Source: Escherichia phage Ecp_YSF
Sequence record: OR327751.1
Length of the DNA stretch: 53,268 bases
Direction: 5' to 3' (one strand)
Under the pieces are notes generated by a model. That model saw only the letters and a program-made list of their open reading frames with translations. It was not told the DNA's origin and ran no database searches. Each line of letters starts with the position of its first letter. The stretch's first letter is position 1. This document shows, piece by piece, positions 48,148-52,857 of this stretch. The position numbers were made by a program, and so were the translations under genes.

Positions 48148-48324
48148 ATGATTAAAGTTCTGGAAAAAGATAACGTAACCTTCGCACGTCAGTGTGGAGG
48201 ATGTTTCTCTGTAGTATCTTACGTGTTCTCTGACTTAAAGATGTACACAGGAAAGAATGACCGAGGATACTTCGCATACAGATTCATTACTTGTCCTGTT
48301 TGCAAGAAGAGTATTCGGCATTAG
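48148..48324 (+). CDS. zinc-ribbon protein (58 aa)
   Basis: CGGC...CPVC. The ORF-track start 48055 gives an AT-rich, low-complexity extension. Confidence 0.5.
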   Translation: MIKVLEKDNVTFARQCGGCFSVVSYVFSDLKMYTGKNDRGYFAYRFITCPVCKKSIRH

Positions 48325-48348: not shown

Positions 48349-48420
48349 AGAGCTTTGTAACTAGGTAGTCCGTCTGGTACCAAGACGTGTGAGAACGTTC
48401 GATTCGTTCTACAAAGCTCT
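48349..48420 (+). ncRNA. tRNA-like RNA element TL1 (acceptor/T-arm intact, reduced D arm, non-decoding anticodon-like loop)
   Basis: 11-bp stem 48349-59/48410-20. T arm GAACG-TTCGATT-CGTTC (48393-48409). Arm CGTCT-GGTACCA-AGACG (48371-48387). Lies 14 nt downstream of P8. Confidence 0.45.
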
Positions 48421-50247: not shown

Positions 50248-50270
50248 CTGAAACATTAGTTGGATGTGGA
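50248..50270 (+). promoter_or_regulatory. phage RNA polymerase promoter P10
   Basis: CTGAAACATTAGTTGGATGTGGA, with the core matching at 15 of 16 positions. Hairpin at 50220-50240 just upstream. Confidence 0.7.
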
Positions 50271-50346: not shown

Positions 50347-50685
50347 ATGGCTAAGATTGTAACCGTAACTCAGTACGAAGCTAACGATGGTTCCCTGTTC
50401 CTGACCGAAGCAGAGTGTAATGCACACGACTTCAAACTGGAAAACGGTGCTAAAATTGAGAAAGCTGCCGAAGCGTACCTGAACACCGTTGGCGCTATCG
50501 ACCGTTCTCGCTCCATGCAGAAGAACACCATCGAGCAGTTCCTGGCATTCTACCTGCCGTGGGTTGAAGCTGGTGAGCCGGAAGTTGAGCGTACTAAGTT
50601 CGATACTCCGAAAGAAGCCAAAGTTGCTGACGCAAGTGTTGCCGAAGCTGCCGAAGCTGCTGTTGAAGAAGCTCCGGTATTCTAA
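50347..50685 (+). CDS. abundantly expressed acidic protein of unknown function (112 aa; tail ..EEAPVF)
   Basis: Strongly biased, capsid-like codon usage. Has its own promoter, P10. Confidence 0.65.
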   Translation: MAKIVTVTQYEANDGSLFLTEAECNAHDFKLENGAKIEKAAEAYLNTVGAIDRSRSMQKNTIEQFLAFYLPWVEAGEPEVERTKFDTPKEAKVADASVAEAAEAAVEEAPVF

Positions 50686-51583
50686 GTTGCCGATGGCAAA
50701 CTTGAGAGACTAAGCTAAATCGATCTGGCATGCACTGGGAGATCTGCCAGTGCTGCCTTGAATCCCATTCCAGAGTGAGTGGGCTTCAATGAGCATTCTT
50801 GTGATTAGAGTTGGGAGGTAGGCCGATGCCCAAGCTCGTGGCCCAGACAAGAGTGTTCATTGAAGTAGTTTTCTGAGTCTTACGACGGGCCTAAACTGCC
50901 TGGAGTTATTGCGACTGTTTTATTCATTTAAAATAAATGCAAATGATTCTGAAATGCGAGTTGCGGCTTAATTAAATTTAAGTCCTCTCCGTGGTCTTCC
51001 AATCCCACGTAACCAAATTTGGCGCATTGTGGCTTCGAGATGTGATTAATAAATCGGAGCAATAATTAATTTGTATTCTGCGATGCAAAGCAGGCTTAAG
51101 TCCTCCAGTGCGCGTGGGGATGTGACAGAGTACAAACTTAATTATGCAGTTGGATATTTCTAGAGGACGGACGAGCACACTGGAATGTCTTCAATTGGTT
51201 TAGTGTGAGAAGCTATGCCAATTTGAAACGTAACTCCTTGGGGAAGTGCTCCTCTGGATTTCCCTCCACACAGGAATCTCAAGCCTGTGGCAGCGACTTC
51301 GAAGCTGCACTGCGTAACCTAATTCACCCTAAAGTGAGTTGCCCTGAGCATGGAAATAAACTGCTCTAACCGATGGTATCTACAAAGGTAGATTAAATCA
51401 GGTTGCCTGTTGGTACTTGGGTTCAACACCTGCTTGCACTCGCAAAGTAGTGCCTCGTACCTGAGATGAAGTGAGTCGGGACCATCAATCCCACGTTATG
51501 TCAAAACACAGTAGGCGACTCACAGATTCTACAAGCCTCGCAGTTCGGGAAAACCTGCGTTATCAAAACCCCCCCCTCAATTT

Positions 51584-51679
51584 GGACGAGTAGCTCAGAA
51601 GGTCTGCTCCAGAGCTTAGTCAGGTAGAGCAATCTGTTCGACAGATGTGTCGTTGGTTCGAATCCAACCTCGTCCACCA
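51584..51679 (+). tRNA. aberrant tRNA (probable anticodon UCG, Arg) with a 19-21-nt hairpin insertion in the D loop and encoded CCA
   Basis: Acceptor GGACGAG/CTCGTCC. T arm GTTGG-TTCGAAT-CCAAC. D stem GCTC/GAGC enclosing the extra hairpin 51599-51617. The anticodon arm is only 15 nt. Confidence 0.6.
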
Positions 51680-51706
51680 ACTCTCAATAATAAACATGGA
51701 GTCCTT

Positions 51707-52789: not shown

Positions 52790-52857
52790 GGGATTTTCGT
52801 ATGTACGGGCTTGACCGTGGTGAAACGACCTGACTGGTTCGATTCCAGTGAATCCCA
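52790..52857 (+). ncRNA. tRNA-like element TL2 (acceptor stem plus canonical T arm, degenerate lower half)
   Basis: GGGATTT (52790-96) pairs with GAATCCC (52850-56). T arm ACTGG-TTCGATT-CCAGT (52833-49). The middle 36 nt do not form canonical D or anticodon arms. Confidence 0.4.

What the first reader, a model, noticed from the sequence alone, without database searches (positions are those of the whole stretch)
51584..51679. The only tRNA is aberrant: an extra hairpin in the D loop and a short anticodon arm
The acceptor stem (GGACGAG/CTCGTCC), T arm (GTTGG-TTCGAAT-CCAAC), 5-nt variable loop, discriminator A and an encoded CCA are all canonical.

Two features are not:
- The D stem GCTC (51593-96) / GAGC (51627-30) encloses 30 nt instead of 8-11 nt. 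The excess is a 19-nt hairpin, AAGGTCTG-CTC-CAGAGCTT (51599-51617), flanked by the imperfect direct repeat AGCTCAG/AGCTTAG.
- The anticodon arm has only 15 nt. It is either ATCTG-TTCGA-CAGAT (a 5-nt loop) or a 4-bp stem with the 7-nt loop GTTCGAC (U33, anticodon UCG = Arg, A37).

E. coli has no machinery for splicing a 20-nt D-loop insert. The molecule is therefore an unusual functional tRNA, a tRNA-derived regulator or decoy, or a pseudogene. Together with TL1 and TL2, the phage carries three tRNA-shaped loci and none is canonical.
Basis: partly seen in the sequence, partly recalled or inferred. Interest (0 to 1): 0.65.

Follow-up and report, generated by a model that had tools for sequence, protein, structure and literature searches.

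The report
Conserved non-decoding tRNA mimic in phage
The phage's single "tRNA-Arg" is a real, selectively maintained tRNA-shaped RNA gene, but its anticodon arm has collapsed to a hairpin with a freely mutating three-base loop and its D loop carries an insert, so it almost certainly does not read codons and is better seen as a tRNA mimic, one of three in this genome.

Summary
Window 51584-51679 has a perfect 7-bp acceptor stem, a 4-bp D stem, a canonical T arm and a 5-nt variable loop. It also has a 30-nt D loop and a 15-nt anticodon arm. ARAGORN and Rfam do not call it a tRNA at their normal thresholds.

The window is a phiEcoM-GJ1-like phage (Carltongylesvirus, Chaseviridae). The element has been annotated since 2008 as "tRNA-Arg, may contain an intron".

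About 39 related records carry it, and every copy examined has the D-loop insert. No relative has a canonical version.

- The tRNA body is nearly invariant: 3 of 65 columns vary, against 23 of 122 in the neighbouring ORF.
- The D insert has two alleles plus a deletion, and all three central loop bases vary (UCG, AAG, UAG, CGA).
- The first and last loop bases always pair, so the arm is a 6-bp hairpin with a triloop.
- Three Yersinia phages lack the element precisely.

I conclude that it is a selected, non-decoding tRNA mimic. It is probably a tRNA-enzyme recognition or processing module inside a long phage-polymerase transcript. It is not a simple pseudogene and not a working tRNA-Arg.

By-catch: about 650 nt upstream lies an unannotated tmRNA-like RNA encoding the tag ANDSEMRVAA. 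It is conserved across four phage families.

The parts
51584..51590 (+). Acceptor stem, 5' strand (GGACGAG)
   Evidence: Pairs 7/7 with 51669-51675. Invariant in 14 distinct variants. The one partner change, C to U, keeps a G-U pair.
51593..51630 (+). D arm. Stem GCTC (51593-96) / GAGC (51627-30) enclosing a 30-nt loop: A14 G15, the insert, then AGTCAGGTA with G18 G19 at 51623-24.
   Evidence: Stem invariant and 100% paired. The SA91KD variant lacks TAGTCA and still fits this model; there the cloverleaf is the MFE.
51599..51617 (+). D-loop insert. Allele A, AAGGTCTGCTCCAGAGCTT, forms an imperfect hairpin. It is flanked by the repeat AGCTCAG/AGCTTAG.
   Evidence: Present in every copy examined, but variable. 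Allele B is AAGGTTTGCATTGTGCTC (GJ1, ST32, Bp10, SKA49, DE15). TH24 has a C-to-T change. SA91KD has a 6-nt deletion at the 3' border. 12 of 24 columns vary. No compensatory changes.
51632..51646 (+). Collapsed anticodon arm: 6-bp stem ATCTGT/ACAGAT with triloop TCG (51638-51640)
   Evidence: RNAfold closes T51637-A51641. The closing pair is kept as U-A or U-G in all variants. All 3 triloop columns vary: TCG, AAG, TAG, CGA.
51647..51668 (+). Variable loop GTGTC and T arm GTTGG-TTCGAAT-CCAAC
   Evidence: 1 of 22 columns varies (T-loop position 60, T/C). An identical T arm occurs in the Erwinia phage Y2 element, which has a different acceptor stem, GGGTAG/CTACCC.
51669..51679 (+). Acceptor stem 3' strand CTCGTCC, discriminator A, CCA
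   Evidence: The tail is not conserved: ACCA, GCCA, ACCC or GCTC.
51532..51569 (+). Single-copy hairpin motif found across the family, CAAGCCTCGCAG-loop-CTGCGTTATCAAAAC. It ends 14 nt upstream of the element in this window.
   Evidence: 2 of 37 columns vary within the genus. Found once per genome in Carltongylesvirus, Y2, Fifi44, PM1, 4HA13 and Myduc, always upstream of tRNA or tRNA-like genes.
50251..50270 (+). Nearest upstream phage-polymerase promoter (AAACATTAGTTGGATGTGGA). Presumed start of the transcript that contains the element.
   Evidence: Identical to GJ1 'putative phage promoter 7'. No sigma-70-like promoter or intrinsic terminator on the + strand between it and the element.
48353..48416 (+). 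TL1, a sibling tRNA-like module (64 nt, no D arm)
   Evidence: Own scan. The homologue in phage 4HA13 has a compensatory T-stem change, GAACG/CGTTC to GAATG/CATTC.
52790..52856 (+). TL2, a sibling tRNA-like module (67 nt)
   Evidence: Own scan. The 4HA13 homologue has the same acceptor stem GGGATTT/GAATCCC but a 107-nt body.

Best explanation
The locus is a genuine, selectively maintained tRNA-shaped RNA gene that no longer works as an adaptor. It is a tRNA-derived mimic.

It keeps the parts of a tRNA that tRNA-handling enzymes recognise: the acceptor/T-arm helix, the D stem, the G18G19/T-loop elbow and the variable loop. Its anticodon arm has collapsed into a 6-bp hairpin capped by an unconstrained triloop. 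Its D loop carries a 19-21-nt insert at the variable 16/17 position. The insert probably arose by a local duplication of the D-arm 5' half.

The element is transcribed inside the long phage-polymerase transcript that starts at 50251. It sits 14 nt after a family-wide hairpin motif and 28 nt before the first ORF of the lysis region.

The mechanism I think most likely is this. Host RNase P and the 3' trimming and CCA-adding enzymes recognise the element. It therefore acts as a processing and stability punctuation mark between the upstream about-1-kb structured tmRNA-like RNA and the downstream lysis mRNA. Processing would also release a stable, non-decoding small RNA.

Shown: the structure is compatible with a cloverleaf, the body is conserved, the loops are hypervariable, and the element is dispensable in some lineages.

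Inferred: the element is expressed, it is cleaved by RNase P, and it is not aminoacylated or used in decoding.
For: 1. All four cloverleaf helices are 100% paired in 14 distinct variants. The only stem substitutions are G-C to G-U and U-A to U-G.
2. Purifying selection acts on the body. 3 of 65 columns vary, against 23 of 122 in the adjacent ORF (Fisher p=0.007) and 20 of 44 in the spacers (p=4e-7). The insert plus triloop vary at the spacer rate, 15 of 27 (p=0.47 against spacers).
3. The loop variants TTCGA, TCGAA, TAAGA and TTAGG sit on one otherwise identical body. Read as anticodons they would be Arg, Ser, Leu and Leu, which is incompatible with a single aminoacylation identity. The published Yersinia phage study indeed reports the gene as 'arginine or leucine' (PMC8762354).
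4. The first and last loop bases always pair, giving a 6-bp stem and a triloop.
5. The pattern recurs in Chaseviridae: conserved acceptor and T arms with wildly different or shortened interiors. Examples are TL1 and TL2, the second element in TH23 with a 4-nt loop, the Y2 and Fifi44 elements, and the 97- and 107-nt elements in 4HA13.
6. In four genera a tRNA-like element lies shortly after the same single-copy hairpin motif. The gap is about 12-14 nt in this window, 4HA13 and Fifi44; in PM1 only the T arm could be placed.
7. The element has no promoter or terminator of its own and lies inside a phage transcription unit.
Against: - There are no expression, processing or charging data.
- The phylogeny is shallow (90-100% identity), so there are no compensatory double changes. 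The cloverleaf is compatible with the data but not proven.
- Unconstrained MFE folds of several variants differ from the cloverleaf in the interior.
- PYps3T, PYps4T and PYps16T lack the element exactly and are viable, so any function is conditional or redundant.
- Conservation of the body could reflect a constraint at the DNA level.
- The phage uses CGA for 16% of its Arg codons. From my own knowledge E. coli uses it for about 6%. This is the usual argument for a decoding tRNA-Arg(UCG).
Confidence: 0.5

Rival explanations
1. It is an unusual but working tRNA. The D-loop hairpin is tolerated at the solvent-exposed 16/17 position. The anticodon arm opens to a 4-bp stem with a 7-nt loop (G-U-UCG-A-C) that reads CGA, which is frequent in the phage and rare in the host. 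Relatives would have switched anticodon.
For: With the insert removed, ARAGORN calls tRNA-Arg(tcg). The acceptor stem, D stem, G18G19, variable loop and T arm are canonical. CGA makes up 16% of phage Arg codons. The GJ1 and Pel53 records and the ST32 paper (PMC6266442) annotate tRNA-Arg.
Against: G32 and C38 would form a Watson-Crick pair, and U33-A37 also pair, so the favoured fold is a triloop. Four different 'anticodons' (Arg, Ser, Leu, Leu) occur on an otherwise identical body. That body lacks A20 for ArgRS, and it has neither a long variable arm nor any sign of Leu identity elements (identity rules from my own knowledge). One variant is simply the inverted loop, TTCGA to TCGAA, which looks like a mutational event at a palindrome. 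The element scores below threshold in both detectors. It is dispensable.
Confidence: 0.12
2. It is a decaying pseudogene: a captured phage or host tRNA gene damaged by a D-arm duplication and a 2-nt loss in the anticodon loop, drifting with no function.
For: It carries two lesions. It was lost precisely in three Yersinia phages. CCA is not conserved. tRNA cassettes come and go at this site; the TH23 group has an extra one.
Against: The body is significantly more conserved than the neighbouring ORF and far more than the flanking spacers. No substitution breaks a pair in 14 variants. The same lesioned architecture persists in about 39 records from several countries and hosts. There is no close host tRNA source; the best E. 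coli match has E=0.6.
Confidence: 0.1
3. It is a partner or decoy in tRNA-related host-phage conflict. One version: it is the acceptor (TLD-like) module that works with the upstream tmRNA-like tag RNA. The other version: it is a sponge for a factor that binds the tRNA acceptor stem or elbow (SmpB, a tRNA-targeting defence nuclease, or a tRNA-modifying toxin).
For: A tag-encoding tmRNA-like RNA lies about 650 nt upstream and has no recognisable tRNA-like domain of its own. In other phage families this RNA is followed directly by a T-loop domain or sits inside a tRNA array. A TLD-only gene is known in phage DS6A, and TLD-only RNA inhibits tmRNA (PMC4131195). The hypervariable loops could reflect an arms race.
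Against: There is no G3-U70 alanine identity pair; the element has A3-U70. The element is a closed cloverleaf with a D stem, unlike a TLD. PYps4T keeps the tag RNA at 98% identity although its group (PYps3T, 4T, 16T) lost the tRNA-like element. No co-varying complementarity was found between the insert or triloop and the upstream RNA. Loop variability equals the neutral spacer rate.
Confidence: 0.15
4. It is an intron-containing tRNA, and the 20-nt D-loop insert is removed after transcription (the GenBank note for GJ1).
For: The flanking direct repeat means that excision would restore a perfect D arm, TAGCTCAGTCAGGTAGAGC.
Against: From my own knowledge, bacterial tRNA introns are group I elements of about 200 nt or more in the anticodon loop, and E. 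coli has no bulge-helix-bulge endonuclease. The insert borders are not conserved: SA91KD has a deletion across the 3' border, and there are two alleles. The anticodon arm would still be defective after removal.
Confidence: 0.03

Closest known systems
Annotated 'tRNA-Arg' of phage phiEcoM-GJ1, ST32 and Pel53
   Same: It is the same locus, 90-100% identical. GJ1 gt01 is 95 nt and annotated 'may contain an intron'.
   Different: The published annotation treats it as an ordinary tRNA-Arg (or tRNA-Leu in some phages). Comparison shows that the 'anticodon' is an unconstrained triloop and that the insert is universal but variable.
Canonical bacterial and phage elongator tRNA (Rfam RF00005)
   Same: 7-bp acceptor stem, 4-bp D stem, G18G19, 5-nt variable loop, 5-bp T stem with a TTCGAAT loop, and a discriminator base.
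   Different: The D loop is 30 nt instead of 7-11. The anticodon arm is 15 nt instead of 17. The score is below the gathering cut-off and ARAGORN does not call it.
Non-decoding tRNA-like RNAs processed by tRNA enzymes (for example mascRNA from MALAT1, or the gammaherpesvirus 68 tRNA-like TMER units); recalled from my own knowledge
   Same: A tRNA-shaped fold with a defective anticodon arm, embedded in a longer transcript, where it can serve as an RNase P / 3'-processing signal.
   Different: Those are eukaryotic or eukaryotic-virus RNAs. No processing data exist here and there is no sequence relationship. This is a resemblance, not a tested membership.
tmRNA tRNA-like domain, including the TLD-only gene of mycobacteriophage DS6A (PMC4131195)
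   Same: Acceptor stem plus T arm with no functional anticodon. Phage-encoded. It lies near a tmRNA-like tag-coding RNA.
   Different: It has a D stem and a closed anticodon-type hairpin. It has no G3-U70. It does not enclose the tag region.

Membership tests
Canonical elongator tRNA (RF00005; tRNA-Arg) | 7-bp acceptor stem with a discriminator base; T arm of 5 bp with a 7-nt T-loop (T54 T55 C56 R57 A58) | tested here: met
   GGACGAG/CTCGTCC, A, GTTGG-TTCGAAT-CCAAC
Canonical elongator tRNA (RF00005; tRNA-Arg) | D arm: 3-4-bp stem with a 7-11-nt loop containing G18G19 | tested here: not met
   The stem and GG are present but the loop is 30 nt. The Rfam alignment has to start at model position 9.
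Canonical elongator tRNA (RF00005; tRNA-Arg) | Anticodon arm: 5-bp stem with a 7-nt loop, unpaired U33 and R37 | tested here: not met
   The arm is 15 nt and folds as 6 bp plus a triloop. In the 7-nt reading, G32-C38 and U33-A37 are complementary.
Canonical elongator tRNA (RF00005; tRNA-Arg) | Score at or above the curated threshold, or called by a standard detector | tested here: not met
   27.9 bits against a cut-off of 29, and only a partial match. ARAGORN default finds 0 genes.
Canonical elongator tRNA (RF00005; tRNA-Arg) | Anticodon conserved among orthologues, consistent with one amino-acid identity | tested here: not met
   UCG, CGA, AAG and UAG occur on an otherwise identical body
Canonical elongator tRNA (RF00005; tRNA-Arg) | Expressed, processed, aminoacylated and used in decoding | not testable with these tools
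   Requires tRNA-seq, acid gels or reporters in infected cells
Intron-containing tRNA | Group I intron core in the anticodon loop, or a bulge-helix-bulge motif with a cognate endonuclease in the host | tested here: not met
   The insert is 19-21 nt and lies in the D loop. No intron family was matched in Rfam. The borders are not conserved. The absence of the endonuclease in E. coli is from my own knowledge.
tmRNA tRNA-like domain | G3-U70 alanine identity pair in the acceptor stem | tested here: not met
   The pair is A3-U70. GJ1 and Mangalitsa have G5-U68 instead.
tmRNA tRNA-like domain | No D stem; the anticodon arm is replaced by helix 2, which leads to and encloses the tag-coding domain | tested here: not met
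   The element is a closed cloverleaf. The tag lies about 650 nt upstream, outside the element. Scans for an enclosing or permuted acceptor stem plus T arm found nothing convincing.
tRNA pseudogene (neutral relic) | Loss of constraint: substitutions at the neutral rate, including changes that break pairs | tested here: not met
   Body 3/65 variable columns, ORF 23/122, spacers 20/44. Cloverleaf helices 100% paired.
tRNA-like processing module (works-like class, not a curated family) | Cleaved by RNase P at the 5' end and matured at the 3' end within a longer transcript | not testable with these tools
   Only the context is shown: the element is internal to a phage transcription unit, with no promoter or terminator of its own.

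The most novel reading that the evidence does not exclude
The aberrant tRNA is one component of an undescribed phage system built around a tmRNA-like RNA. About 650 nt upstream, the window encodes a tmRNA-type resume context and tag (AUAAAU|GCA..., ANDSEMRVAA*). A covariation-supported pseudoknot and a hairpin follow it. No tRNA-like domain of its own could be found. The tRNA-shaped modules (this element, TL1, TL2) might supply the acceptor function, or they might titrate SmpB or tRNA enzymes. That would make a split or TLD-less trans-translation device, and it would be shared by Chaseviridae, Ackermannviridae, N4-like and FelixO1-like phages.
Probability: 0.12. Interest if true: 0.9.

Novelty: new variant of a known kind. 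Interest (0 to 1): 0.55.

Why it matters
Phage genome annotations count this locus as a tRNA-Arg (or tRNA-Leu) and use it in codon-usage arguments. The comparative data say that it cannot be an ordinary adaptor.

The body of the molecule is under purifying selection while the 'anticodon' drifts freely. This means phages retain the tRNA shape for something other than decoding. Candidates are RNA processing, stability, or interference with tRNA-binding host factors. That is testable in an easy E. coli system, and natural deletion variants are available.

The element also marks a richly structured non-coding region of about 1 kb that has escaped annotation in well over 100 phage genomes.

Tried and rejected
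1. ARAGORN's call for the GJ1 copy, a type-II tRNA-Leu(cag). It uses the D arm as an anticodon arm and cannot form in allele A. Rejected.
2. ARAGORN with introns allowed gives tRNA-Thr(agt) with a 7-nt intron; with lowered thresholds it gives tRNA-???(ctta). The readings are inconsistent. Rejected.
3. An alternative D stem using the second repeat (GCTT/GAGC), which places the insert between the acceptor and D stems. It is 4.7 kcal/mol worse for allele A and impossible for SA91KD.
4. The element as the 3' end of a one-piece or permuted tmRNA. No 5' strand upstream of the tag pairs with CTCGTCC. The tRNA-domain assignments made by ARAGORN -ps80 fall inside an ORF or compete with much better local helices.
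5. Base-pairing of the insert or triloop with the upstream RNA. Only one 9-nt match was found (50708-50716 against 51613-51621). It lies in a segment absent from 4HA13, and I did not test whether it co-varies in allele-B phages.
6. A phage CCA-adding or nucleotidyltransferase gene like Myduc gp77. No homologue in the window.
7. Recent capture of a host tRNA. The best E. coli hit is a plasmid tRNA-Asn with E=0.6. The best phage hit outside the family is a Klebsiella phage tRNA-Phe, 79% over 67 nt. It is only a lead.
8. ATCTGTT in the stem as a T7 class II pause signal. There are 5 copies in the window against 10.8 expected, so it is unremarkable.
9. A phage or sigma-70 promoter directly upstream. 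None found.
Full report
**1. What is there**

Window 51584-51679 reads GGACGAG TA GCTC AG[AAGGTCTGCTCCAGAGCTT]AGTCAGGTA GAGC A ATCTG TTCGA CAGAT GTGTC GTTGG TTCGAAT CCAAC CTCGTCC A CCA. The one detail to add is that the insert hairpin has a G-G mismatch, so it forms 7 of 8 pairs.

Standard detectors reject the locus.
- ARAGORN finds no tRNA in the whole window.
- Rfam finds nothing at gathering score.
- At a relaxed threshold the tRNA model reaches 27.9 bits (cut-off 29), but only for 51613-51668. It uses the second repeat copy as the start of the D arm and drops the acceptor stem.
- With the insert deleted in silico, ARAGORN calls a 75-nt tRNA-Arg(tcg). The insert is therefore the main obstacle to detection. 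ARAGORN accommodates the short anticodon arm only by recruiting A26 into an A-G mismatched stem.

The tRNA shape is not chance. A scan for a 7-bp acceptor stem, a 5-bp T stem and a TTCGA[AT]T loop finds three loci, all on the transcribed strand. The mean over 300 shuffles is 0.027.

**2. Identity of the phage and prior annotation**

The region is 90-97% identical to phiEcoM-GJ1-like myoviruses (Carltongylesvirus, Chaseviridae) of E. coli and Yersinia.
- In GJ1 the locus is annotated 'tRNA-Arg, may contain an intron'.
- The ST32 paper calls it a 95-bp tRNA-Arg 'without an intron' (PMC6266442).
- The Yersinia phage paper speaks of a tRNA 'for arginine or leucine'. It notes that PYps3T, 4T and 16T 'lack exactly the tRNA gene' (PMC8762354).

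The locus is therefore known, but it has been treated as an ordinary tRNA.

**3. Comparative anatomy**

About 39 phage records carry the element at 90-100% identity. I recovered 14 distinct variants. Every one has the D-loop insert, so no relative has a canonical tRNA at this position.

Variation is confined to a few places.
- The insert. Allele A is as in the window. Allele B is AAGGTTTGCATTGTGCTC in GJ1, ST32, Bp10, SKA49 and DE15. TH24 has a C-to-T change. SA91KD has a 6-nt deletion across the 3' border.
- The central loop bases. The loop reads TTCGA in most, TCGAA in TH29 (the exact inversion of TTCGA), TAAGA in TH26, PYps16N and FXie, and TTAGG in Bp7 and JL1.
- T-loop position 60.
- One acceptor pair, G-C to G-U.
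- The discriminator, A or G.
- The 3' tail: ACCA, GCCA, ACCC or GCTC.

On the 300-nt flanked alignment I counted variable columns by region.

| Region | Variable columns |
|---|---|
| tRNA body | 3 of 65 |
| Adjacent ORF | 23 of 122 (Fisher p=0.007 against body) |
| Flanking spacers | 20 of 44 (p=4e-7 against body) |
| Insert plus triloop | 15 of 27 (p=0.47 against spacers) |

All four cloverleaf helices are 100% paired in all variants. There are no double compensatory changes, as expected for such a shallow tree. The cloverleaf is therefore compatible with the data and is conserved, but covariation within the genus does not prove it.

**4. The anticodon arm**

RNAfold extends the 5-bp stem by pairing the first and last loop bases. 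This gives a 6-bp stem and a 3-nt loop. All four variants keep this closing pair, as U-A or U-G. The 'U33 ... R37' pattern that made the loop look like an anticodon loop is therefore simply base pairing, and the three variable bases are exactly the triloop.

Read as anticodons, the variants would be Arg, Ser, Leu and Leu on one otherwise identical body. From my own knowledge of E. coli identity rules:
- ArgRS needs A20 and C35. The element has U20.
- SerRS needs a long variable arm.
- LeuRS does not read the anticodon.

A single body cannot track these switches. The phage does use CGA more than I recall for E. coli (16% of Arg codons). The same AT-shift applies to many other codons, so this is weak support for decoding.

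**5. The insert**

With the cloverleaf imposed and the insert inside the D loop, allele A lies within 1 kcal/mol of the MFE. For SA91KD the cloverleaf is the MFE. The alternative that places the insert between the acceptor and D stems is worse for allele A and impossible for SA91KD.

There is no covariation support.

The flanking repeat (GCTCAG...GCT[C/T]AG) and the resemblance GCTCAG-AAGGT / GCTCAGTCAGGT suggest an origin by local duplication of the D-arm 5' half. This is inference from the sequence.

**6. Context**

- The nearest phage-polymerase promoter is at 50251, identical to GJ1 promoter 7.
- There is no sigma-70-like promoter or intrinsic terminator on the + strand before the element.
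- Between the gp29-like ORF (ending at 50685) and the element lies about 900 nt with no convincing ORF.
- Ending 14 nt upstream of the element is a hairpin motif, CAAGCCTCGCAG-loop-CTGCGTTATCAAAAC. It is single-copy and present in six genera of the family. In the window, 4HA13 and Fifi44 a tRNA-like element begins about 12-14 nt after it. In PM1 and Myduc tRNA-type sequence follows further downstream, and in Y2 what looked by eye like a decayed tRNA-Cys follows.
- The interiors of those elements are completely different. Fifi44 has a minimal one of roughly 55 nt. 4HA13 has a 97-nt element with a long insertion in the anticodon arm.
- A 111-nt element in Y2, not adjacent to the motif, has a long extended 'anticodon' helix and the same T arm as the window, but a different acceptor stem, GGGTAG/CTACCC.
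- TL1 and TL2 have homologues in 4HA13. TL1 shows a compensatory T-stem change. TL2 keeps the same acceptor stem around a much larger interior.
- The TH23 group carries an extra 69-nt tRNA-like element directly after this one, with a 4-nt 'anticodon' loop.
- Shrunken or remodelled interiors on a conserved acceptor-stem/T-arm frame are thus a recurrent trait of this phage family.
- Canonical tRNAs also occur in the family: PM1 tRNA-Cys and Myduc tRNA-Arg(CCU).

**7. Interpretation**

The body is under purifying selection, the anticodon position is not, and the element is dispensable in three Yersinia phages. This fits a tRNA-derived RNA kept for its shape. The parts that are kept are those read by RNase P, the 3'-processing and CCA-adding enzymes, EF-Tu, T-arm modification enzymes, and proteins that bind the tRNA elbow.

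Given its position inside a long T7-type transcript, at the border between a structured non-coding RNA and the lysis genes, I favour a processing and stability punctuation role. That step is inference.

The rivals, with my confidence in each, are:
- a working but odd tRNA (0.12);
- a neutral relic (0.10);
- a partner or decoy linked to the upstream tmRNA-like RNA or to host defence (0.15);
- a spliced intron (0.03).

**8. By-catch: a tmRNA-like RNA**

Weak Rfam hits to permuted and alpha-proteobacterial tmRNA models at 50864-51026 recur at the same relative place in Y2, Fifi44 and 4HA13. They align the tag reading frame. At lowered threshold ARAGORN reports the tag ANDSEMRVAA* at 50939-50971.

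The peptide is conserved through synonymous changes.
- Window: GCA AAT GAT TCT GAA ATG CGA GTT GCG GCT TAA
- 4HA13: ...AAC...CGT GTA GCA GCT
- Fifi44: ...AAC...GCA GCC
- Y2 encodes ANDNEMRAAA.

There is no in-frame start codon, and 4HA13 has an in-frame TGA eight codons upstream of the resume codon.

The block is found in 150 phage records outside any annotation.
- Ackermannviridae: Klebsiella phage Magnus, tag ANDDVVLMAA**.
- N4-like: PGN829.1, tag ANDDVILMAA**.
- FelixO1-like: phiEa21-4, inside its tRNA array, tag ANDAQFLAVA**.

Downstream of the tag, seven sequences share an H-type pseudoknot and a hairpin, both with multiple compensatory changes.
- Pseudoknot stem 1: CGUGG/CCACG, CGGGG/CCCUG, CAAGG/CCUUG, UAGGG/CCCUA.
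- Pseudoknot stem 2: CCAA/UUGG, UCGA/UCGA, CCGA/UCGG, CCAG/CUGG.
- Hairpin: the loop UGUGAUUAAUAA is conserved in six of the seven sequences (phiEa21-4 has a different loop), with co-varying stems.

I could not find a canonical tRNA-like domain enclosing or preceding the tag.

A 2014 survey of RefSeq viruses reported ssrA only in mycobacteriophages, Bacillus phage G and DS6A (PMC4131195). Full-text searches for these tags or for a phage tmRNA-like RNA found nothing.

PYps4T retains the tag block at 98% identity, although its group lacks the tRNA-like element. The two are therefore not obligatorily coupled.

**9. Verdict**

This is a new variant of a known kind. The locus itself was already annotated, which limits its novelty. 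The interest lies in the selection pattern and in the company the element keeps.

Noticed in passing
window 50860-51060 (tag 50939-50971; pseudoknot 50990-51022; hairpin 51033-51059): An unannotated tmRNA-like RNA. It has the resume context AUAAAU|GCA and the tag ANDSEMRVAA*, conserved through synonymous changes. A pseudoknot and a hairpin follow, both supported by covariation. No tRNA-like domain of its own was recognised. Homologues with other SsrA-like tags occur in Ackermannviridae, N4-like and FelixO1-like phages; 150 records match.
   Followed up: partly
window 48353-48416 (TL1) and 52790-52856 (TL2): Two further tRNA-like modules on the + strand, each with a 7-bp acceptor stem and a canonical T arm but aberrant interiors. 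TL1 lies 17 nt after a promoter-like site at 48316. Both have homologues in phage 4HA13; TL1 shows a compensatory T-stem change and TL2 keeps the same acceptor stem.
   Followed up: partly
window 51532-51569: A single-copy hairpin motif, CAAGCCTCGCAG-loop-CTGCGTTATCAAAAC, conserved in six Chaseviridae genera and always upstream of tRNA or tRNA-like genes. The stem sequence is invariant and the loop varies. Function unknown.
   Followed up: partly
window 50784-50867: A long stem-loop with a conserved apical sequence (GGGAGG..GGCCGATGCCC..GGCCCAG) that looks able to form a pseudoknot. In this window it lies upstream of the tag block, but in 4HA13 and Fifi44 it lies downstream. The stems co-vary. 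It behaves like a movable RNA module.
   Followed up: partly
window 51471-51523: A hairpin module, GTGAGTCG...CGACTCAC, around a conserved GGACCATCAATCC core. Some relatives have replaced it with variants whose outer stems are compensated (for example AAGACGGTCG...CGACTGTCTT).
   Followed up: partly
L014 685-753 (TH23; by blast also TH28 and TH33): A second 69-nt tRNA-like cassette inserted directly after the element. It has a 4-nt 'anticodon' loop. ARAGORN calls it tRNA-??? with a 2-base anticodon.
   Followed up: partly
L002 794-1234 (Pel53) and L027 3743-4174 (4HA13): HNH endonuclease genes are inserted into the non-coding RNA region in some relatives.
   Followed up: no
L002 (PP952070.1): The record named 'Staphylococcus phage Pel53' (host S. 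hyicus) is 93.5% identical to this E. coli phage region and carries an identical tRNA-like element. The host label looks doubtful.
   Followed up: no
window 51569-51583: The spacer between the motif and the element holds a C-run whose length and sequence vary among relatives.
   Followed up: no
window 51501-51680, minus strand: A 59-aa ORF overlaps the element on the opposite strand. FXie-2024a annotates a hypothetical protein on that strand over the element, and EcoM1 and Mangalitsa also list a hypothetical protein under it. These are probably annotation artefacts.
   Followed up: no
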